Part shown: positions 47,489 to 60,909 of the stretch, in pieces
Layout: every line of letters begins with the position of its first letter
How positions within the stretch are numbered: position 1 is the stretch's first letter
Assembly (NCBI GenBank): GCA_049652745.1
Contig: JBASEY010000029.1
Span: 66,440-130,439 of the forward strand
Direction of reading: 5' to 3'
Source of the DNA: a bacterium
GTDB taxonomy: Bacteria > CSSED10-310
Length of the DNA stretch: 64,000 nt
The notes under the pieces: model-generated
Told to the model about the DNA's origin: nothing
What the model saw: the letters and a program-made list of their open reading frames with translations, nothing else
The model's database searches: none
Made by a program: the position numbers and the translations under genes

Positions 47489-48847
47489 TTGATCACTGAA
47501 CAATCTCCTGTTGTTTGGCTGATCCGGCCTTGGATAGAGGACTTCTCGGCATTTGATCATTTTGATCAGCCGGTGGGTCTTCTATCCCTTGCTGCTTGGC
47601 TGAGACAAAACGGCTGTAGAGTCTATTATATTGATGCGCTATCAGGGAATAAACCACCGGAAAACAGCCCTGGCGAAACAGCGGCTGAGAAAGTTTCGCT
47701 GAAACTAAGGAAATATCCTTGCCATCAAATCGAAAAACCAATTGTCTTCAGATGTATACCTAGGTATTACAAACATTTTGGCACGTCATTGGAGACTCTT
47801 AAAAAGGAGTTGGAAAGCCTTCCTGTCCCCCAGGTCATTCTGATTACAACCGGTATGACCTATTGGTACCAAGCTGTTCAGAGTTTTGTGCAGGTTTTAC
47901 AAGCTCTCTATCCAGCTTCTCCGATAGCGATCGGCGGAATTTATGCCGGAATCGTTCCCGAACATGCTCGAGCATGTCTACAGCGAACCACGGTTTTTCC
48001 TGGGCAGGCAGGACAACAGTTTTTTTCCTGGATGAGCAAAATATTGGGATTCAATATTCATCCACCGACAGACCAAGCTACAATCTTGCCGGCATGGGAC
48101 CTTGTTTCCAATCGATCATATATCATCTATACGACTAGCCGGGGGTGTCTCAGGCGCTGCTCTTATTGTGCGGCGTCGCTTTTAAGGCCTGTGTGGAAAG
48201 CGCGGCCGCCGAATGTTATCCGCAATGAAATCGAAGCTCTTATTACACAATATCAAGTTTCCGATATCGCTCTTTATGACGATGATTTAGGATGCTCGAC
48301 ACTTGAGGGGCAGCAGCATTTAACCGGCTTGCTTCAGATGTTGGTCTCGCACGAATTTCCAATAAATTGGCACCTTCCCAATGCTCTAGGCGTCGACGCC
48401 GTCACACCCGAAGTGGCTAGGCTTATGTACCAAGCAGGATTTGAACAGCCGCGATTAAGCCTGCACCATTTAGATAAACATCTCGATGAAAAAGGCCTGG
48501 ACACCAGAGCACGCAAGGCTTTTGAAACCGCCGCAAAGCGTCTTGTTGAAGCCGGTTACGAGCAAAGTCGTCTTTCCACCTATCTTATAGCCGGACTGCC
48601 CGGGCAAAAACTGTCCTGGTTGAAAAAAGCCGCTGACCAGTTGCTCGATGTTGGTGTCAAGCCCTATTTGGCACAATTCAGCCCGATACCGGGAACTCCC
48701 GCAGGTGAAAAAAGGTTGCAGCAGTTGACGGAAAAATTTAAGACCGATGATTTGTTGTTGACGAACAAGATTTTTTCAGTTTATGCGCATGATGGATGGT
48801 CTGAGGAAGATTACCAGATGCTTGTTCTTGAACTGAAAAATAGATAG
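47489..48847 (+). CDS. B12-binding-domain radical SAM protein (class B)
   Basis: The N-terminus has a Rossmann-like B12-binding domain (VVWLIRP...LSLAAWLRQNGCRVYYID). The radical-SAM motif is SRGCLRRCSYCAAS. The TTG start is 6 nt after the TK-like stop. Confidence 0.75.
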   Translation: MITEQSPVVWLIRPWIEDFSAFDHFDQPVGLLSLAAWLRQNGCRVYYIDALSGNKPPENSPGETAAEKVSLKLRKYPCHQIEKPIVFRCIPRYYKHFGTSLETLKKELESLPVPQVILITTGMTYWYQAVQSFVQVLQALYPASPIAIGGIYAGIVPEHARACLQRTTVFPGQAGQQFFSWMSKILGFNIHPPTDQATILPAWDLVSNRSYIIYTTSRGCLRRCSYCAASLLRPVWKARPPNVIRNEIEALITQYQVSDIALYDDDLGCSTLEGQQHLTGLLQMLVSHEFPINWHLPNALGVDAVTPEVARLMYQAGFEQPRLSLHHLDKHLDEKGLDTRARKAFETAAKRLVEAGYEQSRLSTYLIAGLPGQKLSWLKKAADQLLDVGVKPYLAQFSPIPGTPAGEKRLQQLTEKFKTDDLLLTNKIFSVYAHDGWSEEDYQMLVLELKNR

Positions 48848-48916
48848 TTCCACCGTTTTTGTGGTTCGTCACGGTTCGACGAAATGTGGTAAGATGTCTT
48901 TGATGGAGGTGTAAGA

Positions 48917-49792
48917 ATGGGAAAATCTTGTTTTTATACAATATTATTGAGATGCTCTTTCCTGCTGATAGGGTTGTCGGTCATGTTTTCGGTTGCTTCG
49001 GCTGACGATGAGGCGCCGGGCCGGGTCTGGCACGTTTGTATGGAGTGCGCCGAACGGGATTTCCCATCGATCGGTGATGCGCTTCGCCAGGCTAAACCCA
49101 AGGACACGATTCTTGTATACTGGGAACCTGCTTTTCCGTACTATATGGAGCATTTGGTTATCGATAAACCTGTCAGGATCATTTCAAATGCGGCTGCAGC
49201 AGACATTACATCCTATGATTATTATCCGGTTATTGCGTCCGTATCGAATGAAATTGTGCATATCACGGTTCCTGGAGTCGAACTGATAGGGTTTAATCTA
49301 ATCTATCTTCAAAAACCGGCCGATTGTGAAGATGAGGCTTTATGCTATGCAGAGTCCATTGGATTGCGTCTGGATGCCCCGGCTCTGATTCGTCAGGTTG
49401 CCATCACCAACTGCTCGACAGGTATACTAACGGCATATACGAAACCATATTTAGGTCAGGCAAGTACGATACAGCTTTGTCGGATTGGTCTACCACCAGA
49501 TCATGGATTGACCCAAACAGGTTTTATGCAAACAAAAAACCACTATGGGATCGTATTGCTGGGATGTCGCCAAGAAGGACAATATCTTGGAGTTGGACGG
49601 GATAAAATCTCTGATTGCCAAATAATGCGAAACGCCCAGTACGGGTTGGTTTACACGACTGCCAATGAGCCTGAAATGCTTGGAAATCTGATAGAACTCA
49701 ATGGGAAAGGGCCTTTTAGAATAGTCAATCCCAAACTAGGCGAAAATCAGAAACTGATCTGGTTCGACAAGTTGAAAGGATCTGAAAAATAA
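48917..49792 (+). CDS. Secreted hypothetical protein, possible parallel beta-helix
   Basis: Signal peptide MGKSCFYTILLRCSFLLIGLSVMFSVASA. Repetitive short beta-strand segments with NCSTG-type turns are visible. No catalytic motif is recognised. Confidence 0.4.
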   Translation: MGKSCFYTILLRCSFLLIGLSVMFSVASADDEAPGRVWHVCMECAERDFPSIGDALRQAKPKDTILVYWEPAFPYYMEHLVIDKPVRIISNAAAADITSYDYYPVIASVSNEIVHITVPGVELIGFNLIYLQKPADCEDEALCYAESIGLRLDAPALIRQVAITNCSTGILTAYTKPYLGQASTIQLCRIGLPPDHGLTQTGFMQTKNHYGIVLLGCRQEGQYLGVGRDKISDCQIMRNAQYGLVYTTANEPEMLGNLIELNGKGPFRIVNPKLGENQKLIWFDKLKGSEK

Positions 49793-49909
49793 TTTTTCTG
49801 TAGGTGCTGTAATACATTCATTTCTGTAAACCACGGAATCGACAGAGATCGATAGACGTGTTAGTGTTGTTTGGCGAGACGATTCAAGTCAGCTTGGGAG
49901 GATTGGCTA

Positions 49910-51223
49910 ATGGTTCAAAAGGGTGATAAGCGGGTTGGGATAATCGGCGGTGGGATCAGTGGAATGAGTGCAGCCTGGGAATTATCCAGGAAAGGAATCC
50001 AAGTCGATCTATTCGAACGAGATGTGCATTTGGGCGGTTTAGCCGGCTGGTTTGATGTAAACGGTTCGACATTGGAAAAATTTTACCATCATTTATATAA
50101 TCTGGATCAGGATTTAATTCGATTGATTCAGGAAGTTGGTCTTGGAAGTAATCTGGTATTCCGCCGAACGAATACTGGCGCCTTTTATGTAAATAAAATA
50201 TATCGGCTTAGCAGTCCATTGGATTTGATAAAATATAAGCCCTTACCTTTTCTGGATAGATTAAAAATGGGCATGCTGGTGCTTAAAGCAAGAAAGGTCA
50301 AGGATTGGAAAGAGCTTGATAATATGACGGCCAGGGATTGGATTGTCCAAAATTCAAGTCAGGCGGTCTTTGATATTGTCTGGTCACCATTGTTCCGGTC
50401 AAAATTTGGTAAGTATGCTGACGATATCTCGGCAGCGTGGTTATGGAGCAAGCTGGTTCAGAGAGGGGGCTCCAGGAGCAAAGGAGGAGCAGAAGAACTC
50501 GGTTATTTGAAAGGTGGATATGGACTGTTGTTCAATACGATGGAGAAGCAACTGACAGAACGAAATGTACGCATCCATAAACAATCTCCGGTTGAAACCA
50601 TTGTCTGTGAAAATGGGAAGGTTACAGGGCTCAGAGTTTGTGGAGATATGATTCCATTCACTCACGTAATTGCCTGTGTTCAATTGCCGGATTACCTGGA
50701 AATTGTTGGCGAGGCGCCGGAACAATATCGGAATGAACTGGGTAAAATCGGCTATTTAGGGAATGTCACCCTGGTTTTAAAATTGAACCGCAGTTTATCA
50801 GATACATATTGGATTAATGTCACAGATCCGGAATGTCCATTTGTTGGAGTTATTGAACAGACAAACCTGTTGGACGAAACGCATTATGGTGGACACCATT
50901 TTGCGTATATAAGTAGATATATGGATGTAGATGACCCTCTATATCTGATGACTCCCCAGGACTTGTTTGCTGTTTATCGTCCTTGGTTGCAAAGGGTTTT
51001 TCCGGAATTTTCCGAAAGTTGGCTGGACGATCTGATGCTGTGGCGTGACCCTCATTCTCAAGCCGTTGTCACAACAGGATATCGTACTAGAGTACCGGAT
51101 ATCCAAACGCCGTTGAAAGGATTATATTTGTCGACGATGGCGCAGATTTTTCCAGAGGATCGCCAAATGAGCAATGGAGTTAAATTTGCCAAAAAAGCGG
51201 CTGCTATGGTACTTACCGAATAA
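49910..51223 (+). CDS. FAD-dependent oxidoreductase, amine-oxidase / phytoene-desaturase-like
   Basis: Dinucleotide-binding motif RVGIIGGGISGMSAAWEL...LFERDVHLGG. 437 aa. ATG at 49910 follows a GGGAGGA Shine-Dalgarno. Confidence 0.75.
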   Translation: MVQKGDKRVGIIGGGISGMSAAWELSRKGIQVDLFERDVHLGGLAGWFDVNGSTLEKFYHHLYNLDQDLIRLIQEVGLGSNLVFRRTNTGAFYVNKIYRLSSPLDLIKYKPLPFLDRLKMGMLVLKARKVKDWKELDNMTARDWIVQNSSQAVFDIVWSPLFRSKFGKYADDISAAWLWSKLVQRGGSRSKGGAEELGYLKGGYGLLFNTMEKQLTERNVRIHKQSPVETIVCENGKVTGLRVCGDMIPFTHVIACVQLPDYLEIVGEAPEQYRNELGKIGYLGNVTLVLKLNRSLSDTYWINVTDPECPFVGVIEQTNLLDETHYGGHHFAYISRYMDVDDPLYLMTPQDLFAVYRPWLQRVFPEFSESWLDDLMLWRDPHSQAVVTTGYRTRVPDIQTPLKGLYLSTMAQIFPEDRQMSNGVKFAKKAAAMVLTE

Positions 51224-51547: not shown

Positions 51548-53446
51548 TCAGTTTAGGGCGGGCACTGTGTAGACAGAGTATAAAAGCTCTTGACGACCTA
51601 CCGGATTGCGAAATTCCTGTAAAACACCTCCAGGTATCTCTTCCAGCAGTCTTTTTTTCAGCCATTCTTGTTTCGCCAGATCGAAAAAAATCAATGAAGT
51701 TGTGCGCTTACGGTTGACAAGATGGCTCAAAACAGGCGATTTTTCCGATACATGTACAAAATTATATGCATCGCCGCCCAATCCCTTGTTTCGATTATAT
51801 AATGTGATCGTAATTATATCGTCATGTACCCAGGGATTGATAAAAACGACATATTGTTGATCCATGATTTTATCAGCAAAATGAATTGCTTCCAGACGTT
51901 TTGCCGGGCCGAAATATGAGTGATCCTTGACAATTGACCAGGTTGATATCCAAAGGTTGAATCCATGTAGGGTTATGCCAATCAAGCATCCTATAACAAG
52001 AGTAGGAATGACTCGACGAAAGAGAGGTTTTTGAAAAAGCGCTGAACCGGTGACGCTTATCTCACGAAAGACAACAACTGCAACCAGATAGATGAGCGGC
52101 CATATGATAAGAGTTCTACGATGCAGTGGAAAAATCAAAAGCGGAGGAAGTGTTCCACAAAAGTAATAAATGGCCAGAATGGGATTCCAGCGTAGAATCA
52201 GGCAAAGCAGCGCTACAATAAAGCTCAATGCAAATGCCCCTGAATAAAAGCGATGAATTGTTTGTTCAGCAAAGGTTGAACGAAACCATTCAACGCTGTT
52301 TCGAAGTATATTTTTCAAGATCACGTTGGCTGGTTGGAGATCTGATAGCACCTGATCATCGACTGTTTTTTTCCAAACAGGGGTGTCTGTGGCGAGGGAG
52401 CCGAATTGAGATTGGAACATTTTTATGGGGCCATGAAGAATATTGAGCTGTAAGGTTAGGAGAACGGCAAAGACGATTAAAGCGCAAACCGGGCCTGGCC
52501 ACCAATTTTTCCATATTTTTCGTTTTAAAGCGGGTACGATAAAGATTATGAACCCGACAAACAAGTAAAGCACTTTAAGCGGTGCATAGGACCATCCTAT
52601 ACAACCGGCAAAGAAGCCGAAACCGATCCATTTGACAATTCCTATTCTTGATTCGTTATTCCTCCAAATTGAATCTGTCGTCCAGAGGAGGCCGAGGGAG
52701 ACGGCGACGCTTGTGCTGAAAAAAGTGCCCATTCGAGATTGGGCCAGGTGCCATGGGGAAAGACCGAAGACTGCAAGAGCTATGATAGACCATCGATCCG
52801 GAATAGTTTTTCTAACCCAAAACCAGAATATCAATAAGAGTAAAGTGGATCCGATGACTTCGGAAAATCGGACGGACCAAACAGAAACACCGAACAGTTT
52901 CATAACAGACCATAAAACAGGAAGCATCAGAGGAGACTCACCACCACCCCGTAAATCAAATCCCCTTCCCTGAAAGGGATGGATCGGCCATCTGCCTTCT
53001 ACCGCAGCCATCCCCCAGACACCTGTGTTGGCAGCATATTCATTGAGAAATGGAGGCCAACTTTCAAGCTCGATCAATTTAATCAAGGTGATGACCAGTA
53101 TGGCAAGTAACCCGGAAATCATGGAGGCGTGTGAAGGCGATGTCGTCCACTCATCTTTCAGGTGTTTTCTGAAAACTATTCCATAGACTAGCAGTGTGAT
53201 GCAGGCTGCGAGAATCAGGGGTATATTCGCCCAATGTTTTTCCGGAAGCAGTTGATTGTGAATAAGCAGAGCGTTGACGACCAGGAGAATCATGGATAAG
53301 CGTCCTTTTATTCGATTTGTCGCCGGCAGATACCAATCCAGGAAAACAATGGCGATACTGATGCCGACTAAATACGGAACAAATCCCGAAACCCATGGTT
53401 TCAGCCAATTTAAATAAGGATATGAGAACCAAAGCAGATGATTCAT
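51548..53446 (-). CDS. Polytopic membrane protein, probable GT-C (PMT/ArnT-like) glycosyltransferase
   Basis: 632 aa with more than 12 predicted TM helices and long periplasmic loops. The topology is ArnT-like. The Shine-Dalgarno is weak. Confidence 0.45.
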   Translation of the reverse strand: MNHLLWFSYPYLNWLKPWVSGFVPYLVGISIAIVFLDWYLPATNRIKGRLSMILLVVNALLIHNQLLPEKHWANIPLILAACITLLVYGIVFRKHLKDEWTTSPSHASMISGLLAILVITLIKLIELESWPPFLNEYAANTGVWGMAAVEGRWPIHPFQGRGFDLRGGGESPLMLPVLWSVMKLFGVSVWSVRFSEVIGSTLLLLIFWFWVRKTIPDRWSIIALAVFGLSPWHLAQSRMGTFFSTSVAVSLGLLWTTDSIWRNNESRIGIVKWIGFGFFAGCIGWSYAPLKVLYLFVGFIIFIVPALKRKIWKNWWPGPVCALIVFAVLLTLQLNILHGPIKMFQSQFGSLATDTPVWKKTVDDQVLSDLQPANVILKNILRNSVEWFRSTFAEQTIHRFYSGAFALSFIVALLCLILRWNPILAIYYFCGTLPPLLIFPLHRRTLIIWPLIYLVAVVVFREISVTGSALFQKPLFRRVIPTLVIGCLIGITLHGFNLWISTWSIVKDHSYFGPAKRLEAIHFADKIMDQQYVVFINPWVHDDIITITLYNRNKGLGGDAYNFVHVSEKSPVLSHLVNRKRTTSLIFFDLAKQEWLKKRLLEEIPGGVLQEFRNPVGRQELLYSVYTVPALN

Positions 53447-53955: not shown

Positions 53956-55710
53956 ATGAATCCTTTGGGCCCAAGGGAATTACAGCGTGATCGATTGTTG
54001 TTTCTGTTGAAAACGTTGGAAGACATGGGACGGACACTGACGGGAGGTGAATCGTTTGACAAAGCTGCCCGTTTTCTTCTGCGAACACTTTTAGAATCGA
54101 TCGGGATTTCTGAAGGCGCGATTTTTACATTTGTATCGAGGCGAAGTGTTTTGAAGCTGAAGGAAAAAACTCAGAATCTGGATTGTGATTTGTCTGAGAT
54201 GAAAATTTCCGGTGAACAGATCAGGTATCTGGCTGAAAATCCGGTTCCTCATAAGACAGACCAGCTTCCAGAAGAGCTTGCTAAAAAATTTATGGAAATG
54301 ATCGAGTTCTGGAAAACAAAGGATATTCAGGTAATGATTCCTTTGGCGGTAAAAGGGGATCTTTTGGGGATGGTGTGTTTAGGCCATCGACAGGCAGATC
54401 AGCCATACAGCAAAATCGATCTGGAAATACTTGCTCTTTTGACCCAGCATATCAGTTTATATTTTCATGGCCAAAAAAGCCTGGAACAGCTTCAACAAGC
54501 AAACTATGAACTCAAACGAAAAATTCTGGAAATGGAGCAATTGTATGAAGTTGCTCTCGCAGTCACCAGGTTACGAAATCCGGAAGAGTTGCTGGGTGAA
54601 ATCCTGTCAAGAGCCACTAAAATCCTGGATGCACGATATGGCGCAGTATGGCTGATGACTAATCAGTCTTATTATTTAGCAGGGGCATTTGGTTTTAGTG
54701 ATGTCGATTCGATTCCGGAAATTATGGTGGATTTAAGTAAGCTGAGTCCTAAAACGTTTCGATTTGATCCCGATTCTGCCGGGAGCCTGTTAGCGAGCAT
54801 GAGTATTCGAAACACAACTATCGGGGTATTGAGCGTCGCTGGTAAAGAAAGCCCTTTGGGTGGTTTTATGGATTTTTCAGAATCCGATTATCAACTTCTG
54901 AATACTTTTGCAAATCAGGCAGCCGTAGCCTTGGAAAATGCACGGCTGTATGTGGAAGCTGTAGCCAAAGAGAGAATGGATCAAGAAATTAGGGTAGCTG
55001 CTGAAATTCAGGAATCTATTCTGCCGGACGCTTTTCCAGAGACTCCGGATTTGGATATCTCAGCGATGACATTGCCTTGTCAGATTGTCGGGGGCGATTT
55101 TTTTGATTTTTTCGAAATGGCGGATGGAAAACCAGCTATGATAATTGCCGATGTTTCCGGTAAAGGTGTTCCTGCTGCAATGATGGTATCGACCGTTCAT
55201 GGCGCCTTACATGCTTTTACTGAGTTTGTCGACAATCTTGACGAACTGGCATCGAGAATAAATTCTCTTCTTGTGAAAACGACACCTGATAATAAATTTG
55301 TTACAGCGACCTTTCTGACTTGGAATTCAATGTCAAAAGAAATTACCACACTGTCAGCCGGCCATGAACCTATCGTCCTGATCAAAGCCGATGGAACGAT
55401 GACACATCTGTCTCATGGGGGTATGGTTCTGGGATTGTTCGCCGGTATTGAATTTGAGACTCATACACTGGTATTGAATAAAGGTGACTGTCTCTGCCTA
55501 CATACTGACGGCATTATCGATCAACGCAATAGTCTTGGCGAGCGATTTGGGATTGCTCGTTTTGAAGAATTATTGCGTGAGTCTGTGACGGCAAATAGAA
55601 AACAATCGGCTGCGATGATAGTGCAGAATGTTTTTCGCAGCCTAGCCAAATTTGCCAAAGATGAACCCGCAACAGATGATCAAACATTGATAATTGTCAT
55701 TCGTCGGTAA
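53956..55710 (+). CDS. GAF-domain sensor fused to a PP2C-type Ser/Thr phosphatase (RsbU/SpoIIE family)
   Basis: Tandem GAF-like regions come first. The C-terminal PPM domain has QIVGGDFFDF and IADVSGKGVPAAMM, followed downstream by GHEP and LHTDG. Confidence 0.85.
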   Translation: MNPLGPRELQRDRLLFLLKTLEDMGRTLTGGESFDKAARFLLRTLLESIGISEGAIFTFVSRRSVLKLKEKTQNLDCDLSEMKISGEQIRYLAENPVPHKTDQLPEELAKKFMEMIEFWKTKDIQVMIPLAVKGDLLGMVCLGHRQADQPYSKIDLEILALLTQHISLYFHGQKSLEQLQQANYELKRKILEMEQLYEVALAVTRLRNPEELLGEILSRATKILDARYGAVWLMTNQSYYLAGAFGFSDVDSIPEIMVDLSKLSPKTFRFDPDSAGSLLASMSIRNTTIGVLSVAGKESPLGGFMDFSESDYQLLNTFANQAAVALENARLYVEAVAKERMDQEIRVAAEIQESILPDAFPETPDLDISAMTLPCQIVGGDFFDFFEMADGKPAMIIADVSGKGVPAAMMVSTVHGALHAFTEFVDNLDELASRINSLLVKTTPDNKFVTATFLTWNSMSKEITTLSAGHEPIVLIKADGTMTHLSHGGMVLGLFAGIEFETHTLVLNKGDCLCLHTDGIIDQRNSLGERFGIARFEELLRESVTANRKQSAAMIVQNVFRSLAKFAKDEPATDDQTLIIVIRR

Positions 55711-55733
55711 AAATCAATGTCATATAAAAATGC

Positions 55734-56342
55734 TCATTCAACTTTTCGCTGTTCTTCCGGATGAAATCGGCTGGAAGGGTCGGATGAAGAGGTATCTTGC
55801 CGGCGGCTTGTGCGAAACAAGAAAAACAGCAACAACAGTGAAACAAGTGTAATTCCGAAGGGAAGTCTGGTTGGGTAAGGTAATGAAAAAAATCCTCTGC
55901 TGGTAAAAAAACCGATAAAAGATAGAAGCAGAGCCCAAAGAGTACAATTTATAAATTGAGCCCAAGCAAACCAGAACCAATTAGTTTTAAAAAACCCGAA
56001 AGCGGTCGCCGAAACAAGACGAATTCCATACCCATATTGCGTGATAAAAGTCGATTCCCAAGGATGGTGGATGATAACGTTTTCCAAAGTACCGATCAGT
56101 GTTTTTATGCGTGAACGAGATAATAGATGATGCTGCTTACTGAGCCAATATCCCAGAAGGTAAAAAAAACAGTGACCGACCCAAGAACTCACCGCAGCCA
56201 CAACAATAACTACCGAAATATTCAGAATGCCGTCGGCGGCAAGAATCCCTGCAAGGATTACAAAAACAAAGCTCTGGAAAAAAGAACCCAAAGCGATTGC
56301 CCACAACCCATATTGATCGAGTAATGAATAAAACGTATCCAT
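55734..56342 (-). CDS. DedA/SNARE-associated family membrane protein
   Basis: 202 aa. The N-terminal pattern YGLWAIALGSFFQSFVFVILAGILAADGILN...WVGHCFFYLLGY is typical of DedA. The Shine-Dalgarno is GGAGA. Confidence 0.65.
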   Translation of the reverse strand: MDTFYSLLDQYGLWAIALGSFFQSFVFVILAGILAADGILNISVVIVVAAVSSWVGHCFFYLLGYWLSKQHHLLSRSRIKTLIGTLENVIIHHPWESTFITQYGYGIRLVSATAFGFFKTNWFWFAWAQFINCTLWALLLSFIGFFTSRGFFSLPYPTRLPFGITLVSLLLLFFLFRTSRRQDTSSSDPSSRFHPEEQRKVE

Positions 56343-56530
56343 TCAATCTCCGGATCTCAAGAATAGCCTTTTAAAACAGAGAATTGCAAGTTCTTAATCT
56401 TTTTAATGAATAAGGCACGAAGATAATTATGGTAATCGTAAAGCGAATATTTTATTTGGCCTCTTGCTCGCAAAAAAAAGCACAAAACGGTAATATGGCT
56501 GTCGCTAGATCGAGAAGGAGGTAACCGGCC

Positions 56531-58534
56531 ATGAATTGTCAGTTATTACGTATATTGATGGTTATGGTGGTATTGGCTTGCCTGTTTTTTTCGGCTTGTA
56601 ATGATGTGCCGGCTATTAAAAACCAACCTCAAGAAATCGTTCAGGAGAATGTAAGCCCGATCAATCAATCAGAGTTAATACAGAAGAATATGCCCGAGGC
56701 GCCTTTTTCGCATGGGCTTTTGTCACCGCCTGAGCTTTCGCCGGCTCTTGCGGAAATCTCTGACCGCCGGATTGCGAATTACCCGGTCATAACAAATAGA
56801 ATTTTGAAAGGTGGCCGCTATGCTTTTCCGCTGGTTCTTGAGAATAACAGATTTGCTGTAGCATCTTTACGTGGAGTGGATTTTTTTGAATATGACGGCT
56901 CAGAACAGCGTGAGCTTCTTCCAAGTTTACAAATTGATACGCTCGGTGACGCGTGGTGCCTGGAAAAAGTCGGATCGTCTCTTTGGGTTGCAGATGGCTA
57001 TGCAGGGGTGTCCGCCTGGGATATGAGTACTGGGAAGGCTTTGGCTCAATGGCCGGATTTGGAGCAGGCGAGGGCGTTTCATGCATTGCATGACGGCAGA
57101 CTCGTTGTTTGTCGACATAGACAAGGTCTCGATATTCTTTCGGTAAATTCAAACGGAACAAAAATCACGCAGCGAATCCATGTTGATGCCGGTGAGCGGG
57201 TGAATTTTGTAACATCCGATGTTGATAGATTGTTCATCGGAACTGTAGGCGCCGGATATATAGCATATGATATCGATCCAGACTCCGCTGATTATAAATG
57301 GACATATACCGATTGTGACAGAATAGTATGGTGTGCTTATCGAGAGGGCTTTCATTACATCATAGATCAAGATAAGGGTCTTATAATTTTAGAAGACCAG
57401 GCAGATCAAATTCCCCGTTTTCTCAGCAATTTACTTCTACATGGCCAAACACGCCATGCCTGTTTTGTCGACGATGACAAGATTGTACTGGCTAATGAAA
57501 AAAGTATATATCTTGTCGATATCGCGCGACCGGGTAAGCCGCGGATTGTCCAGCAAGTTCCGGCAAAATTGGATATTCGAGGGGTGGCGCAGTTTGGAGA
57601 GGATCATCTGATTGTTACCGAGAGCGAATATGGTGTCCGCCTGATGAAGCTCAGCTCAGACCAAATCAAGGATGTCGTCATATTTGAACATAACGGGCTG
57701 GTAACAGATGTGGTTCCAATGGATTCAACTCATTTTCTCGTGACCAATACCGGTCAAGGACTCTCATTGCTCCATGCGGAAATTGATCACGAACTCACCG
57801 TCGTCTCGCGCTGGCGGGATACGGTTTATCCTGTTGCTGCAGACGCTCAAGAATCGGTTGCAGCGATTGCAGACTATGAGGGAGTATTGTTTCTTGATCT
57901 GAGCGATGAAAGAGTTATTAAAAAAATTTCCAAGATCAGGACACCGGGTCGAGCTGTAAATGTCTGTATGAAAGGGAAATATGCGTTTGTCGCAGACTGG
58001 TTTGAGGGAGTGCAAATTGTTGATATTCAAAACATATCGGAACCGGTTATTCGGTCAAATGTTTCGACAAAGGGCTGGGCGATAGATGTCGCAGTGACAT
58101 CTAATTATGCCTATGTTTGCAGTGTAACGGAAGGCTTGTTGACAGTGGATATCAGTGACCCGTCAAATCCACGCACAATCGGCATAGATCCTTCATCACA
58201 AGCCCCCGAAGCCGTCGCTCTAACAGAGCAGGCGCTTTATGTCGCGGATTTTAATTTTGGATTGATTGTTTTTGATCTGAAAGATCCCGCTAAGCCTAAA
58301 CCATCGGGTTGCTATAGGTTGGATGTGTGTAAAAATCTCGAGATACAGCGTAATCTTTTAATTGTTTCCAATTATATACACGGTGTGAAATGGTTTGATA
58401 TCTCCCAGCCGCTCAGACCGGTTTTGACGGGAGAACTAGACACGCCTGGAAAGTCATATGGCGTGGCATTTCTCCCCTATGAGAATCAGATTTTGGTTGC
58501 TGATTGGCACGAATTACTTCGAGTTGAGTGGTAA
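56531..58534 (+). CDS. LVIVD-repeat beta-propeller lipoprotein
   Basis: Lipobox LACLFFSAC. Repeated blocks match the LVIVD repeat (PF08309): YAFVADWFEGVQIVDIQNISEPV, YAYVCSVTEGLLTVDISDPSNP and LYVADFNFGLIVFDLKDPAKP. The Shine-Dalgarno is AAGGAGG. Confidence 0.65.
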   Translation: MNCQLLRILMVMVVLACLFFSACNDVPAIKNQPQEIVQENVSPINQSELIQKNMPEAPFSHGLLSPPELSPALAEISDRRIANYPVITNRILKGGRYAFPLVLENNRFAVASLRGVDFFEYDGSEQRELLPSLQIDTLGDAWCLEKVGSSLWVADGYAGVSAWDMSTGKALAQWPDLEQARAFHALHDGRLVVCRHRQGLDILSVNSNGTKITQRIHVDAGERVNFVTSDVDRLFIGTVGAGYIAYDIDPDSADYKWTYTDCDRIVWCAYREGFHYIIDQDKGLIILEDQADQIPRFLSNLLLHGQTRHACFVDDDKIVLANEKSIYLVDIARPGKPRIVQQVPAKLDIRGVAQFGEDHLIVTESEYGVRLMKLSSDQIKDVVIFEHNGLVTDVVPMDSTHFLVTNTGQGLSLLHAEIDHELTVVSRWRDTVYPVAADAQESVAAIADYEGVLFLDLSDERVIKKISKIRTPGRAVNVCMKGKYAFVADWFEGVQIVDIQNISEPVIRSNVSTKGWAIDVAVTSNYAYVCSVTEGLLTVDISDPSNPRTIGIDPSSQAPEAVALTEQALYVADFNFGLIVFDLKDPAKPKPSGCYRLDVCKNLEIQRNLLIVSNYIHGVKWFDISQPLRPVLTGELDTPGKSYGVAFLPYENQILVADWHELLRVEW

Positions 58535-59865
58535 TGGAACGATTCACATGTGACTGGATTTTTTCTACATTGGTGGTTTTGTGTGATGGGAAAGTGGTAT
58601 GTGGTTGCGCGGATCCATATGGTTTACGTCCTTTGGGGGATGTCAATCGACAAACGCTTTACGAGATATGGCATTCTGAAACCGCGTGCAAAATAAGGGA
58701 AGGGTTAAATCACGGATATGCGGCTTTTTGTGAACCGTGTGGATTGAAATGCAGATTGAAAGATGGCGAAAATCCTCCTAGTAAATCCGTTCATCCCGAA
58801 ACGATCTCCAGACTGTTTATTGAACCAACCGTATTGTGTAATCTTGATTGCTATAAATCTGTTTGCAACAAAGCTTCGGGTATTGTGAATACGCGAAAAA
58901 CTCCGATGATGGATTTTGAATTGTACAAAACAATTGTGGATGAAGTTGGATCGAACCTCAGTCGGCTGGATTTTTTTAATTACGGGGAATCGTTTGTTCA
59001 TCCGCAGGCTGTCGATATGCTGGAGTATTTTAAATCTAAATACCCTCAACCATATGTATACATCAGTACCAACGGCTTGATGCTGAATGAACAAAAAATT
59101 TCCCGCCTTGTACAAGCCGGTATCGATGAAATAACGTTTTCAGTTGATGGCGCTGATCAGGAAACCTATCAAAAATATCGCATTGGCGGCGACTTTGAAC
59201 GGGTCAAAGACTTGATGACCCTGATGGTACGATTGCGCAATGAAAGAGGAAGAGAAGTCCCTTTTATTAACTGGCGATATATTTTATTTTCATGGAATGA
59301 TTCCGATTCACAGATGCAGAAAGCTCGAGATTTAGCTCATTCGATAGGTGTGGACAGGTTGACATGGGAGATAACGGATCATCCGGAAGATGCCGTTTCA
59401 GATCGGTATCAACCCGGGACGAAAGATTGGCGGACCGTATACCATGAAATCTGGGATACAAGTCATTTGAGCAATGCGATTGAGTCAAATTTGTATCGCG
59501 CGGATATTCAACTTCTACGAAGTCTGCCGATCGTAATGCGGCGAAATAAAGAATCGAATATCCGGGTATCGGTTAAAAATATTGCACGTGTTTCTTGGAA
59601 GGATAGGACTTTTTCCGGAAGACGACTGGTTCGTTTAGGAGCGCAACTGCACGACAGAAAAAAGCGATTGTTAAACCGGGATTATGCCAGAGCCTTCTTG
59701 CCCAAGTCGCTTCATCAAAACGAGGAAGTCGATATTACCCTCCAGCTTCCTCCATTGGAAACCTCCGGTCTATATTGGCTTAAACTGGATATGGTATCGG
59801 AAGGAATTGATTGGTTTGAAAGAGGTGGCTCAAATGTCACATGGGTTCGTTTAATAGTGTTTTGA
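58534..59865 (+). CDS. Atypical radical SAM protein with an N-terminal SPASM/twitch-like Cys cluster and a CX3CX4C core motif
   Basis: The core has ISTNGLMLNE and ITFSVDGADQETYQKYRIGG. The cluster motif is CNLDCYKSVC. An N-terminal Cys-rich region (CDGKVVCGC, LGDVNRQTLYEIWHS, FCEPCGLKC) precedes the core. The ATG overlaps the upstream stop as TAATG. Confidence 0.55.
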   Translation: MERFTCDWIFSTLVVLCDGKVVCGCADPYGLRPLGDVNRQTLYEIWHSETACKIREGLNHGYAAFCEPCGLKCRLKDGENPPSKSVHPETISRLFIEPTVLCNLDCYKSVCNKASGIVNTRKTPMMDFELYKTIVDEVGSNLSRLDFFNYGESFVHPQAVDMLEYFKSKYPQPYVYISTNGLMLNEQKISRLVQAGIDEITFSVDGADQETYQKYRIGGDFERVKDLMTLMVRLRNERGREVPFINWRYILFSWNDSDSQMQKARDLAHSIGVDRLTWEITDHPEDAVSDRYQPGTKDWRTVYHEIWDTSHLSNAIESNLYRADIQLLRSLPIVMRRNKESNIRVSVKNIARVSWKDRTFSGRRLVRLGAQLHDRKKRLLNRDYARAFLPKSLHQNEEVDITLQLPPLETSGLYWLKLDMVSEGIDWFERGGSNVTWVRLIVF

Positions 59866-60186
59866 CAGGAACGAATTCATTTCTATCTTGCTCGTTATCT
59901 CCCGCTCAATAGAGGTTGATCACATCAAAGCCGGAAATCGAGGTGATGATACACAAAATCAAACATCTGCTTGAGATCAGGCATGTTTTTGTCGACGGCA
60001 TGTAAAAATGATCCAATTATGGGCACGAAAAATGTACCAGGTATGGCATTGAGGCGCTTGGTTGGAGAACATCTATTTGATCTTTGTCTGATAATCGCTG
60101 AGCTTCAACCTTGAAAGCGGAATTATGAACAGGCTTTTAAAAGAATTGATCGCGATTCCGCTGTTGCTGTAAATAATTATTTGAGC

Positions 60187-60909
60187 TTAAAAGTCGCTCC
60201 TGACAGTTGTTTGAGACGATAGAATTTTTAGCAAGGTTTGCTGGTAATTTTCAATGATATGATCAAATGGATAGGAATCGATCTGACTGATCAATTGACA
60301 GCATTTTTGGAAAAGCTCGATATTATGGCTCATTAGCAGGCCGGCAAATCGTTCATGAAATTTTTGCAGGCTTCGAGGATGCGCAGTCGAGCATTCTGAA
60401 AGCCAGTGATCGATAACAAAAACGTGTTCGATAAATGTCTTTCGAGAATCGGCATCTTCAATTGATACCTCATCGATAACCGGCAACATGTAAAATCGTC
60501 TTATGAAGGTTTCAGCGAAAAGTCCTCTTCCTTCAAATAATGGATCTCCAGTTTGATTGAATATTTCCACTCCGAAGAGGCCGCAGCTAGGCGATTTACT
60601 TTTAAAAATGAAGCCTCTCAATTTTGATTCCACCAATTGATCACAGCGGGTCTTCGACCAGGTCAGCATATGCTGAGTGAGATCTATTCTGGTTGTTTGG
60701 GTGATTAAAATCGGGTTATCGATATCGCCTTCCAGAACCATCGGTTCACGTGGAATACTCAAGCCGGATTCGACTTCCGGGCAGACTGGGAGCAGATCAA
60801 AATACCGGCCGAAAAAGGTCGTAATATATTCGTTCAATTTGTGTCGACCATCGTATCTGACGAGATTTCCCAATAAGCAGGAGCTGATACCCAGGGTGAT
60901 TTTGTTCAT
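60187..60909 (-). CDS. DUF523/DUF1722 fusion protein (YbgA/TudS-like)
   Basis: The N-terminus ITLGISSCLLGNLVRYDG matches DUF523, the 2-thiouracil desulfurase family. The C-terminal helical half resembles DUF1722. Confidence 0.65.
   Translation of the reverse strand: MNKITLGISSCLLGNLVRYDGRHKLNEYITTFFGRYFDLLPVCPEVESGLSIPREPMVLEGDIDNPILITQTTRIDLTQHMLTWSKTRCDQLVESKLRGFIFKSKSPSCGLFGVEIFNQTGDPLFEGRGLFAETFIRRFYMLPVIDEVSIEDADSRKTFIEHVFVIDHWLSECSTAHPRSLQKFHERFAGLLMSHNIELFQKCCQLISQIDSYPFDHIIENYQQTLLKILSSQTTVRSDF

What the first reader, a model, noticed from the sequence alone, without database searches (positions are those of the whole stretch)
56531..59865. LVIVD-repeat lipoprotein translationally coupled to a radical SAM enzyme with N-terminal SPASM-like Cys cluster and non-canonical CX3CX4C motif
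The TAA stop of the 667-aa LVIVD beta-propeller lipoprotein overlaps the ATG of a 443-aa protein (TAATG at 58532-58536). That protein carries a clear radical-SAM core (ISTNGLMLNE, ITFSVDGADQETYQKYRIGG). The only candidate cluster-binding triad, CNLDCYKSVC, is CX3CX4C rather than CX3CX2C. A SPASM/twitch-like Cys-rich region (CDGKVVCGC...LGDVNRQTLYEIWHS...FCEPCGLKC) sits N-terminal to the core. In PqqE- or anSME-type enzymes that region is C-terminal. The last 230 aa or so have no Cys and no recognisable motif. Coupling to a propeller lipoprotein suggests a protein- or peptide-modifying maturase or a cofactor system. I see no obvious precursor-peptide ORF nearby.
Basis: partly seen in the sequence, partly recalled or inferred. 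Interest (0 to 1): 0.7.

Follow-up and report, generated by a model that had tools for sequence, protein, structure and literature searches.

The report
Rearranged radical SAM enzyme beside lipoprotein
The two overlapping genes are real: the second encodes a member of a very large, unstudied family of radical SAM enzymes with its extra iron-sulfur domain at the front and an unusually spaced cluster-binding motif, but it is paired with the propeller lipoprotein only in one small bacterial lineage, so the lipoprotein is unlikely to be its general target.

Summary
A 667-aa LVIVD lipoprotein gene (56531-58534) overlaps a 443-aa radical SAM gene (58534-59865) by TAATG.

The radical SAM protein has three parts:
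- an N-terminal SPASM/twitch-type Cys domain that aligns to the C-terminal twitch of BtrN;
- a radical SAM core whose only cluster triad is CX3CX4C, present in 119 of the 120 closest homologues;

The enzyme belongs to a huge uncharacterised family (more than 3,400 sequence clusters) in Vicinamibacterales, Aminicenantes, CSSED10-310 and others. The LVIVD partner has only 14 orthologues. It sits next to the enzyme in 4 of about 76 distinct genomes (80 loci) sampled. Elsewhere the gene stands alone among housekeeping or envelope genes. I found no conserved precursor peptide and no RiPP recognition domain.

More distant relatives share the N-terminal twitch order. Their second Cys spacing varies: X2 (canonical), X3, X4 or X5. 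Some are fused to, or adjacent to, glycosyltransferases.

Best reading: a permuted, BtrN-like radical SAM enzyme with an expanded cluster loop. Its substrate is unknown and probably not a peptide, possibly an envelope glycan. The lipoprotein link is lineage-specific. It is a new variant of a known kind and of moderate interest.

The parts
56531..58534 (+). Gene for a 667-aa LVIVD-repeat lipoprotein. It has a signal peptide with a lipobox (Cys23, nt 56597-56599), a disordered tether (about aa 21-67), and an all-beta region (aa about 86-667) modelled as a tandem double beta-propeller.
   Evidence: ORF. Pfam LVIVD 94.4 bits. 13-sequence alignment with a conserved lipobox Cys and an invariant C-terminal Trp. 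AF2 pLDDT 87.5, about 56 strands, residues 21-67 below pLDDT 50. Foldseek matches are tandem-propeller proteins such as Utp21 and DDB1.
58532..58536 (+). TAATG stop/start overlap joining the two genes (translational coupling).
   Evidence: Read from the sequence. The same or an equivalent overlapping or abutting junction occurs in L006, L007, L008, L021 and L087.
58534..59865 (+). Gene for a 443-aa radical SAM enzyme. It belongs to a large uncharacterised family with the order twitch, core, FW-like domain.
   Evidence: ORF. Pfam. Homologues. AF2 pLDDT 93, pTM 0.88.
58543..58752 (+). N-terminal SPASM/twitch-type auxiliary Fe-S domain (aa 4-73). Invariant Cys: C6, C23, C25, C66, C69.
   Evidence: Pfam SPASM 6-69, E 5.8e-9. 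The family profile aligns residues 5-74 to the C-terminal twitch domain of BtrN (chain residues 165-237 of 4m7s). C6, C66 and C69 fall on BtrN Cys, and BtrN's fourth Cys falls between C23 and C25. Invariance.
58837..58866 (+). CX3CX4C loop (C102-N-L-D-C106-Y-K-S-V-C111), the presumed ligands of the SAM-binding [4Fe-4S] cluster.
   Evidence: Invariant in A1. Present in 119/120 homologues. HMMER aligns it to BlsE CNADCFM--C with a two-residue gap. Relatives have X2, X3, X4 or X5 at this place.
58810..59463 (+). Radical SAM (beta/alpha)6 core (aa about 93-310). It includes a GGE-like FNYGESF motif, STNG, and ITFSVDG.
59491..59862 (+). C-terminal NBR1/FW-like beta-sandwich (aa about 320-443). It has invariant surface motifs (R364, R367, G369, Q371; D419-M-x-x-E-G-x-D-W427).
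59968..59993 (+). Terminator-like hairpin plus T-run about 100 nt after the radical SAM stop codon. It is a possible operon end.
   Evidence: Consensus scan. The number of such sites in the region is not above the shuffled expectation, so this is weak evidence.

Best explanation
This is a two-gene operon. The first gene encodes an exported, lipid-anchored tandem beta-propeller (LVIVD) protein. The second, translationally coupled gene encodes a cytoplasmic radical SAM enzyme from a very large, uncharacterised family.

The enzyme has three modules:
- an N-terminal twitch-type domain, predicted to hold one auxiliary [4Fe-4S] cluster. This is a circularly permuted order compared with BtrN, anSME or PqqE;
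- a (beta/alpha)6 core whose SAM-cluster loop is expanded by two residues to CX3CX4C;
- an NBR1/FW-like beta-sandwich, likely to be a recognition module.

Inferred mechanism. The CX3CX4C cluster binds SAM and cleaves it reductively to give a 5'-deoxyadenosyl radical. The radical abstracts a hydrogen from a substrate held between the core and the twitch domain. The auxiliary cluster accepts or relays the electron, as in BtrN.

The substrate is unknown. The enzyme's function does not depend on the lipoprotein, because the family is conserved in thousands of genomes that lack it. The weak evidence available points to a non-peptide substrate, possibly a sugar or envelope glycoconjugate. The LVIVD-enzyme operon is a lineage-specific arrangement of the CSSED10-310-like clade. 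It may link the enzyme's product to an envelope process in which the lipoprotein takes part.

Shown: the gene structure, domains, motif conservation, family size and neighbourhood statistics. Inferred: cluster binding, SAM cleavage, the role of the auxiliary cluster, and the substrate class.
For: Domains: Pfam. The family profile matches both halves of BtrN in swapped order: twitch 165-237 to query 5-74, core 7-115 to query 100-206.

Motif: eight invariant Cys, enough for three cluster ligands plus four or five more. CX3CX4C occurs in 119/120 homologues and aligns to BlsE's CX3CX2C with a 2-residue gap. The SAM-binding motifs are kept (GGE-like FNYGE, STNG, SVDG).

Structure: confident model with pLDDT 93. 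The core is closest to BlsE, NifB, GDGT-MAS and viperin. The C-terminal domain is closest to FW/NBR1.

Independence from LVIVD: the partner is present in 4 of about 76 distinct genomes (80 loci), has 14 orthologues in total, and neighbours elsewhere are heterogeneous. Family size: 958 representative clusters at E<=1e-30 and 3,408 clusters at E<=1e-60 from a Vicinamibacterales query.

Glycan lean:
- the best sequence matches among solved structures are the sugar-modifying BtrN and BlsE;
- relatives are fused to GT1, to Capsule_synth plus a methyltransferase, or to DUF4214;
- orthologue L003 lies inside a GT4/Bac_transf cluster;
- a GT1 protein lies downstream in L058 and L080;
- relative P0157 lies 2 nt after a GT9 gene;
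- LVIVD orthologue P0133 is coupled to a GT9-like gene.
Against: No biochemical data exist for any member, and no curated model reaches its cut-off.

I could not measure Cys-Cys geometry, because model coordinates are not exposed. That C111 is the third ligand therefore rests on alignment and invariance only.

The glycan association is weak for the orthologous group itself. Only 2 of 125 immediate neighbours are glycosyltransferases.

Within its clade the LVIVD link is tight. About 12 of 14 LVIVD orthologues share a contig with the enzyme, judged by matching contig lengths and confirmed directly for only five of them. The stop/start overlap is kept down to 35-40% LVIVD identity. A functional relation in that clade is therefore plausible and is not explained by this reading.

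The extra invariant Cys (C23 or C25) has no assigned role.
Confidence: 0.55

Rival explanations
1. Protein maturase. The radical SAM enzyme modifies the LVIVD lipoprotein post-translationally before export, as anSME modifies sulfatases. Translational coupling would keep enzyme and substrate in step.
For: The stop/start overlap is conserved in every case where the pair exists. About 12 of 14 LVIVD orthologues share a contig with the enzyme, judged by matching contig lengths and confirmed directly for five. The LVIVD protein has invariant Cys and His residues (C194-R-H196, C268, C530) that could be targets. The core resembles anSME and other SPASM enzymes.
Against: The enzyme family is conserved at 46-60% identity in at least 70 sampled genomes without an LVIVD gene within 10 kb. 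It numbers thousands of clusters, against 14 LVIVD orthologues. One LVIVD orthologue (P0133) has no adjacent enzyme. All invariant enzyme residues are the same in paired and unpaired members. The two products are destined for different compartments, so any modification would have to precede Sec export.
Confidence: 0.12
2. RiPP or cofactor maturase that acts on a small precursor peptide which ORF finding missed.
For: Many SPASM/twitch enzymes are RiPP maturases. NCBIfam gives weak hits to several of them (ScmF, WgkB, StsB, mycofactocin).
Against: No RRE/PqqD domain: Pfam finds only Radical_SAM and SPASM at E<1. No small ORF in the flanks is conserved among the five LVIVD-linked loci; all cross-locus matches fall in alternative frames of the large genes. 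No gene cluster is conserved across the 80 loci. All RiPP-family scores are far below their cut-offs.
Confidence: 0.03
3. Lipid-modifying enzyme. The family acts on membrane lipids of Acidobacteriota and allied phyla, for example in a Tes/Mss-like tail-to-tail coupling or another alkyl-chain modification.
Confidence: 0.06
4. Non-catalytic or non-radical protein. The altered spacing disables SAM cleavage, and the protein serves only as an Fe-S, redox or binding protein, like the 'pseudo-SAM' families.
For: The motif departs from CX3CX2C. NCBIfam gives a weak hit to the pseudo-SAM family TIGR04347 (23 bits).
Against: All three Cys are invariant, and so are the SAM-binding motifs (FNYGE, STNG, SVDG). 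Relatives pass smoothly through X2, X3, X4 and X5 spacings while keeping the rest of the core. Conservation of 46-60% identity between phyla argues for a constrained catalytic function.
Confidence: 0.07

Closest known systems
BtrN (2-deoxy-scyllo-inosamine dehydrogenase; founding twitch-domain radical SAM enzyme; PDB 4m7s/4m7t)
   Same: It is the best sequence match among solved structures (E 1e-10). Both the radical SAM core and a single-cluster twitch domain align, and three of the four Cys of the BtrN domain fall on invariant Cys here. The predicted logic is the same: a SAM cluster plus one auxiliary cluster.
   Different: The domain order is swapped: the twitch is N-terminal here and C-terminal in BtrN. 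The motif is CX3CX4C instead of CX3CX2C. There is an added FW-like C-terminal domain and a fifth invariant Cys. The substrate is unknown. Overall similarity is low (about 20 bits per domain).
NCBIfam NF033640 'N_Twi_rSAM' (twitch domain-containing radical SAM protein)
   Same: It is the one curated model whose single best-scoring stretch spans both the Cys domain and the core in the order found here (query 5-234 to model 4-268 of 398).
   Different: The score is 28.6 bits against a cut-off of 170, so this is not a member. Ten relatives also score only 26-41 bits. To my knowledge that family is also uncharacterised (from memory, not checked).
TIGR04317 (tungsten cofactor oxidoreductase radical SAM maturase) and TIGR04311 (Geobacter putative metalloenzyme maturase)
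   Same: These are the best-scoring curated models for the core: 98.9 and 77 bits over residues 91-276.
   Different: The scores are far below the cut-offs (380 and 400). Only the N-terminal half of each model aligns (model positions 3-179). From memory, those families carry the SPASM domain C-terminally.
BlsE (cytosylglucuronate decarboxylase, PDB 7vob)
   Different: BlsE has canonical CX3CX2C, no N-terminal twitch and no FW domain.
Known non-canonical radical SAM cluster motifs (ThiC CX2CX4C; HmdB/HcgA CX5CX2C; the CXnCX2C clusters listed by RadicalSAM.org)
   Same: All depart from CX3CX2C while, where tested, retaining radical SAM chemistry.
   Different: The variants listed in RadicalSAM.org all change the first spacer and keep CX2C (n = 4-9 and 11) (PMC9477430). 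Here the second spacer is changed, within an otherwise canonical core. That paper excludes ThiC from the canonical set as not sharing the motif. No paper in the library pairs CX3CX4C or CxxxCxxxxC with radical SAM.
TIGR04133 'rSAM_w_lipo' radical SAM/SPASM proteins that sit next to a lipoprotein (Bacteroidota)
   Same: The pairing is conceptually similar: a radical SAM/SPASM gene next to a lipoprotein gene. The description is recalled from memory.
   Different: The score is 41 bits against a cut-off of 425, and the architecture is different. The lipoprotein partner was not compared.

Membership tests
Radical SAM superfamily (PF04055) | Partial (beta/alpha)6 TIM-barrel core detectable by the family model | tested here: met
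Radical SAM superfamily (PF04055) | CX3CX2C motif binding the SAM [4Fe-4S] cluster | tested here: not met
   The only triad is CX3CX4C (C102, C106, C111). It is invariant, and 119/120 homologues have it with no CX3CX2C. It aligns to the canonical motif with a 2-residue insertion.
Radical SAM superfamily (PF04055) | SAM-binding motifs (GGE-like, ribose/TNG, SxDG) | tested here: met
   F148-N-Y-G-E/D-x-F154, T179-N-G181 and F202-S-x-D-G206 are invariant or nearly so. They align to the same positions of BtrN and BlsE.
Radical SAM superfamily (PF04055) | Reductive cleavage of SAM to a 5'-deoxyadenosyl radical | not testable with these tools
   This needs anaerobic biochemistry.
SPASM/twitch subgroup | Cys-rich auxiliary cluster domain homologous to SPASM/twitch | tested here: met
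   Pfam SPASM 36.5 bits against a cut-off of 21.5. Aligns to the BtrN twitch.
SPASM/twitch subgroup | Auxiliary domain located C-terminal to the barrel | tested here: not met
   The domain occupies residues 6-69, before the core at 93-310. RadicalSAM.org notes that some Megacluster-1-1 members have N-terminal Cys domains but that no structures exist.
SPASM (two auxiliary clusters) | Seven or eight conserved Cys for two auxiliary clusters | tested here: not met
   Only five invariant Cys lie outside the SAM loop. This fits one cluster, i.e. the twitch type.
NF033640 N_Twi_rSAM | Score at or above the curated cut-off (170 bits) | tested here: not met
   28.6 bits.
TIGR04317 W_rSAM_matur / TIGR04311 rSAM_Geo_metal | Score at or above the curated cut-off (380 / 400 bits) | tested here: not met
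   98.9 and 77 bits, covering the core only.
RiPP radical SAM maturases | RRE/PqqD-like recognition domain and an adjacent precursor peptide gene | tested here: not met
   No such Pfam hit at E<1. No conserved small ORF. No conserved cluster.
anSME-type protein maturase with a dedicated substrate | Co-occurrence of enzyme and substrate family across genomes | tested here: not met
   LVIVD is found next to the enzyme in 4 of about 76 distinct genomes (80 loci). There are 14 LVIVD orthologues against thousands of enzyme clusters. Whole-genome absence of LVIVD elsewhere was not checked.
Tes / GDGT-MAS (NF045702) | Score at or above the curated cut-off (450 bits) | tested here: inconclusive
   NF045702 is not among the 25 of 39 hits listed for the window protein, so its score was not seen. 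A distant relative scores 26.8 bits. Structural similarity is generic.
LVIVD repeat proteins (PF08309) - first gene | LVIVD repeats above the gathering score | tested here: met
   94.4 bits against a cut-off of 20.2, with three repeats called in the C-terminal third. The whole mature region is modelled as a tandem beta-propeller.
Choice-of-anchor B (TIGR04312) - first gene | Score at or above the curated cut-off (100 bits) | tested here: not met
   31.7 bits over 53 residues.
Bacterial lipoprotein - first gene | Signal peptide ending in a lipobox with an invariant Cys | tested here: met
   The N-terminus reads MNCQLLRILMVMVVLACLFFSAC. Cys23 is at least 90% conserved. Helix 4-20 is followed by a disordered tether. 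No dedicated predictor was run.

The most novel reading that the evidence does not exclude
The family, together with its X3, X4 and X5 relatives, would be the first clade of canonical-fold radical SAM enzymes in which the second spacer of the cluster motif is variable (CX3CXnC, n = 2-5). It combines this with a circularly permuted twitch domain. It would carry out a so far unassigned housekeeping modification of the cell envelope in Acidobacteriota and allied phyla. The boldest version is that it is the 'alternative pathway' enzyme for membrane-spanning (iso-diabolic acid) lipids, which the Mss/Tes studies could not find in Acidobacteria. The probability given is for this boldest version. For the motif claim alone (a functional SAM-cleaving CX3CX4C cluster) I would put the probability near 0.6.
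Probability: 0.05. Interest if true: 0.85.

Novelty: new variant of a known kind. Interest (0 to 1): 0.5.

Why it matters
Radical SAM censuses and annotation rules treat CX3CX2C as defining. RadicalSAM.org says so explicitly and lists only first-spacer variants. Here a family with thousands of members, abundant in soil and sediment Acidobacteriota, keeps an otherwise canonical core but has CX3CX4C. Its relatives show X2, X3, X4 and X5 at the same place. If these clusters cleave SAM, the signature is more plastic than assumed.

The permuted order, with the twitch domain before the barrel, would also be a natural test of how auxiliary-cluster domains dock onto the core.

The family has no curated model, no solved structure and no known function, although it is conserved at about 50% identity between phyla. 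That makes it a good target for function discovery.

For the specific finding, the practical message is a caution: a conserved stop/start overlap in one lineage does not identify the enzyme's substrate.

Tried and rejected
- Literature. 'N-terminal twitch' with radical SAM gave 0 papers. CX3CX4C gave 4 papers, none about radical SAM. CxxxCxxxxC with radical SAM gave 0. The ProfileView preprint mentions twitch domains only as an SFLD subgroup label.
- Precursor peptides. Small ORFs of 20-90 aa were compared across the window, L006, L007, L008 and L021. Every cross-locus match lies in another frame of the big genes.
- Rfam scan of 55500-60400 at E<=0.1 found nothing.
- Promoter and terminator scan: counts were not above shuffled expectation. 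No promoter-like site lies upstream of 56531, and one terminator-like site lies at 59968.
- A conserved functional partner was sought by clustering 1,079 neighbour ORFs from 85 loci. No cluster occurs in more than 16 loci. Pfam counts on 125 immediate neighbours agree.
- Large downstream proteins were tested as a possible common 'secreted propeller' partner. They are heterogeneous: BNR/sortilin, HerA-like, ABC-2, FAD, GT1, alpha-2-macroglobulin, or no hit.
- The AFDB Foldseek library was not available.
- Model coordinates are not exposed to the sandbox, so Cys-Cys distances and the docking of the twitch domain onto the barrel could not be measured.
- An NJ tree of 80 orthologues groups four LVIVD-linked enzymes together. 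L021 falls elsewhere, so one origin versus transfer or loss of the pair is unresolved.
- A search with a Vicinamibacterales orthologue, run to look for a cultured host, showed only metagenomic or MAG sources in the top 120.

Full report
**1. What is in the sequence**

The window carries an ORF at 56531..58534 (+, 667 aa). A second ORF has its ATG at 58534, overlapping the TAA stop of the first (TGG TAATG), and runs to 59865 (443 aa).

The two genes are flanked by genes on the other strand. A VTT/DedA-like membrane protein lies at 55734-56342, and a 2-thiouracil-desulfurase-like gene lies at 60187-60909. The pair therefore forms an isolated bicistronic unit. A terminator-like hairpin lies about 100 nt after the second stop codon, but such sites are not more frequent here than in shuffled sequence.

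The window matches a MAG contig, GCA_029973845.1 JARKRM010000165.1, which encodes a 99% identical LVIVD protein in the same gene order.

**2. The first gene**

- Pfam gives LVIVD at 94.4 bits (cut-off 20.2). NCBIfam gives only a sub-threshold hit to choice-of-anchor B.
- The N-terminus is a signal peptide ending in the lipobox FFSAC. The Cys is conserved in at least 90% of 13 orthologues.
- An AlphaFold2 model (pLDDT 87.5) shows a signal helix, a disordered tether (residues 21-67) and about 56 beta-strands.
- Its best structural matches are tandem double-propeller proteins such as Utp21 and DDB1.
- Several motifs are invariant: WVADGYAG, C-R-H, TPGRA, ADWFEG, ADFNxGL, DTPGKxY, ADWH and a C-terminal Trp.
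- Nothing identifies a catalytic function.

**3. The second gene**

Pfam finds Radical_SAM at residues 96-233 and SPASM at residues 6-69.

A profile of 20 family members searched against PDB sequences finds BtrN first (E 1e-10), in two pieces in swapped order. The BtrN C-terminal twitch domain (chain residues 165-237 of 4m7s) aligns to residues 5-74. The BtrN core aligns to residues about 92-206. In that alignment C6, C66 and C69 fall on three Cys of the BtrN domain. The fourth BtrN Cys falls between C23 and C25.

The family has exactly eight invariant Cys: C6, C23, C25, C66, C69, C102, C106 and C111. That is enough for one SAM cluster and one auxiliary cluster. The domain is therefore of the twitch type, not a two-cluster SPASM.

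The AF2 model is confident (pLDDT 93, pTM 0.88). It shows the alternating beta/alpha core up to about residue 310 and an all-beta domain from about residue 320 to 443.

- Foldseek adds NBR1 itself.
- Proteins that match only the C-terminal part of the family profile carry repeated Pfam N_BRCA1_IG domains.

So the 'motif-less' tail is the end of the barrel plus an NBR1/FW-like beta-sandwich. That domain has strongly conserved surface residues. No solved structure matches the whole architecture.

**4. The cluster motif**

- CNLDCYKSVC is CX3CX4C. 119 of the 120 closest homologues have it; the exception is a fragment lacking the N-terminus. Only one has any CX3CX2C elsewhere.
- The family consensus is C-N-[LI]-x-C-[FY]-x-[AS]-V-C.
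- HMMER aligns it to BlsE's CNADCFM--C with a two-residue gap. It is therefore the canonical loop with two residues inserted before the third Cys.
- An exhaustive search of 1.84 billion representatives finds 958 clusters at E<=1e-30. Among the best 149, the same position shows CX3CX2C in 50, CX3CX3C (often CC) in 24, CX3CX4C in 41 and CX3CX5C in 2. One more shows X7, and the remaining 31, mostly fragments, have no such motif.
- Most of these relatives keep the N-terminal SPASM/twitch domain.
- The RadicalSAM.org overview lists only CXnCX2C variants (n = 4-9 and 11). It says that N-terminal Cys domains occur in the SPASM/twitch megacluster but have no structures (PMC9477430).
- The paper library holds nothing that links CX3CX4C to radical SAM enzymes.

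**5. Family and curated models**

No NCBIfam model reaches its cut-off. The best are TIGR04317 at 98.9 bits (cut-off 380) and TIGR04311 at 77 bits (cut-off 400). NF033640 'N_Twi_rSAM', the one model whose match spans both the Cys domain and the core in this order, scores 28.6 bits against 170. Ten relatives fare no better.

Orthologues (46-84% identity, full length) come from CSSED10-310, Aminicenantes, Vicinamibacterales and other Acidobacteriota, and Chrysiogenales. Some MAGs have doubtful labels. A Vicinamibacterales orthologue alone retrieves 3,408 clusters at E<=1e-60. None of the listed sources is a named cultured strain.

**6. Is the lipoprotein pairing general?**

No.

- tblastn with the LVIVD protein against 85 loci (about 76 distinct genomes with 10-kb flanks) finds it in four genomes only: L006, L007, L008 and L021. 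In each it lies immediately upstream.
- In the 5.8-billion-protein collection the LVIVD protein has just 14 orthologues. Ten share their longest-contig length with an enzyme hit. This is indirect evidence; adjacency was confirmed directly for five orthologues.
- P0134 (35% identity) is still adjacent to the enzyme.
- P0133 (38% identity) is not. It is coupled to a GT9-like gene next to carbamoyltransferase, nucleotidyltransferase and GT2 genes.
- Wherever the pair exists, the junction overlaps or abuts.

The LVIVD gene thus nearly always comes with the enzyme, but the enzyme mostly comes without it.

Elsewhere the immediate neighbours are as follows:
- a convergent aminotransferase (15 of 125 neighbours);
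- a convergent LpxC (11);
- a co-oriented small Ras/Arf-like GTPase preceded by a Roadblock gene, after dnaX-recR (9);
- LVIVD (4);
- signal peptidase (3);
- GT4 (2);
- OmpA (2);
- many singletons.

Two close non-orthologous relatives with the FW domain are also solitary. An NJ tree groups four LVIVD-linked enzymes together and places L021 apart.

**7. Hints about the substrate**

There is no PqqD/RRE domain and no conserved small ORF. That argues against a RiPP role.

Several observations lean towards carbohydrate or envelope chemistry:
- the best sequence matches among solved structures, BtrN and BlsE, act on sugars;
- distant relatives are fused to a GT1 domain, to Capsule_synth plus a methyltransferase, and often to DUF4214;
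- orthologue L003 lies between GT4 genes and a Bac_transf gene;
- L058 and L080 have a GT1 protein downstream;
- relative P0157 lies 2 nt after a GT9 gene.

These are scattered observations, not a statistical enrichment, and I treat them as a lean only.

A lipid role cannot be excluded. GDGT-MAS is among the top structural matches. The Mss study reports that Acidobacteria lack mss and mostly lack tes (PMC13159169). Nothing specific supports that role.

**8. Most likely mechanism**

Shown:
- a translationally coupled two-gene operon;
- an exported tandem-propeller lipoprotein;
- a cytoplasmic enzyme with a twitch domain, a radical SAM core and an FW-like domain;
- an invariant CX3CX4C and five further invariant Cys;
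- intact SAM-binding motifs.

Inferred:
- the CX3CX4C loop holds the SAM-cleaving [4Fe-4S] cluster;
- the N-terminal domain holds one auxiliary cluster and packs over the barrel opening, as the C-terminal twitch does in BtrN;
- the 5'-deoxyadenosyl radical abstracts a hydrogen from a non-peptide substrate, and the auxiliary cluster takes the electron;
- the FW-like domain recognises the substrate or a partner.

The lipoprotein is not the general substrate. In its clade it may act downstream on the same envelope component, or be a clade-specific extra substrate.

**9. Verdict**

The maturase interpretation is not supported at family level.

This is a new variant of a known kind: a permuted twitch radical SAM enzyme with an expanded cluster loop. 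It belongs to a large family that has no curated model, no structure and no known function.

Interest is moderate (0.5). The second-spacer plasticity and the size and conservation of the family would interest radical SAM specialists. No function is established, and the striking gene pairing is lineage-specific.

Noticed in passing
representative proteins P0137-P0285 (relatives of window 58534-59865): Across the wider N-terminal-twitch radical SAM superfamily, the spacer between the 2nd and 3rd cluster Cys varies: X2 in 50, X3 or CC in 24, X4 in 41, X5 in 2 of 149 representatives. One subgroup has CTAAC-N-I-S-C-x-Q-A-C-C, with extra Cys on both sides of the loop.
   Followed up: partly
L013 2892-3973 and equivalent positions in L017, L028, L032, L034-L036, L046, L047: In Aminicenantes/Chrysiogenales-type genomes the radical SAM orthologue starts 1 nt after a small Ras/Arf-like GTPase gene. 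That gene follows a Roadblock/LC7 gene (an MglA/MglB-like pair), downstream of dnaX and recR. This is a second, different case of tight coupling for the same enzyme.
   Followed up: partly
L086 6865-10007; L095 1754-3923: The one LVIVD orthologue that is not next to the radical SAM gene overlaps a GT9-like (heptosyltransferase-family) gene instead. A canonical-motif relative of the enzyme lies 2 nt after a GT9 gene. GT9 may be a common link between the two proteins.
   Followed up: no
L055, L057, L066, L069, L070, L073, L077 and other Vicinamibacterales loci, about 60-740 nt downstream of the enzyme gene: LpxC (lipid A biosynthesis) is the convergent downstream neighbour in 11 loci, often followed by uvrA. 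This is probably lineage synteny.
   Followed up: no
window 47489-51223 and 51548-53446: Upstream lie a B12-binding-domain radical SAM gene (452 aa), a 291-aa protein with a faint beta-helix hit, and an FAD amine-oxidase/phytoene-desaturase-like gene in one direction. They are followed by a 632-aa PMT_2 (GT-C type) membrane glycosyltransferase on the other strand. Together they may be a lipid or glycan modification set.
   Followed up: no
window 60187-60909 (-): The 2-thiouracil-desulfurase-like gene is 240 aa and keeps only about the first 50 residues of the DUF1722 domain. The syntenic gene in L001 is 314 aa with both domains. It may be truncated or a different start/stop.
   Followed up: no
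L007 11422-13089; L005 9435-12197: Large proteins (555 and 920 aa) with no Pfam match lie directly downstream of the enzyme gene on the same strand in two genomes. The window has no equivalent.
   Followed up: no
window 58529-58536 and junctions in L006, L007, L008, L021, L087: Every LVIVD orthologue ends in Trp. The TGG-TAATG junction is identical in four genomes whose LVIVD proteins are only 45-71% identical to one another. This suggests selection on the junction itself.
   Followed up: partly
window 53956-55710: A GAF-domain SpoIIE/PP2C-type phosphatase (584 aa) lies upstream, next to the VTT/DedA-like membrane protein at 55734-56342. The same gene order is seen in the source MAG contig (L089).
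   Followed up: no
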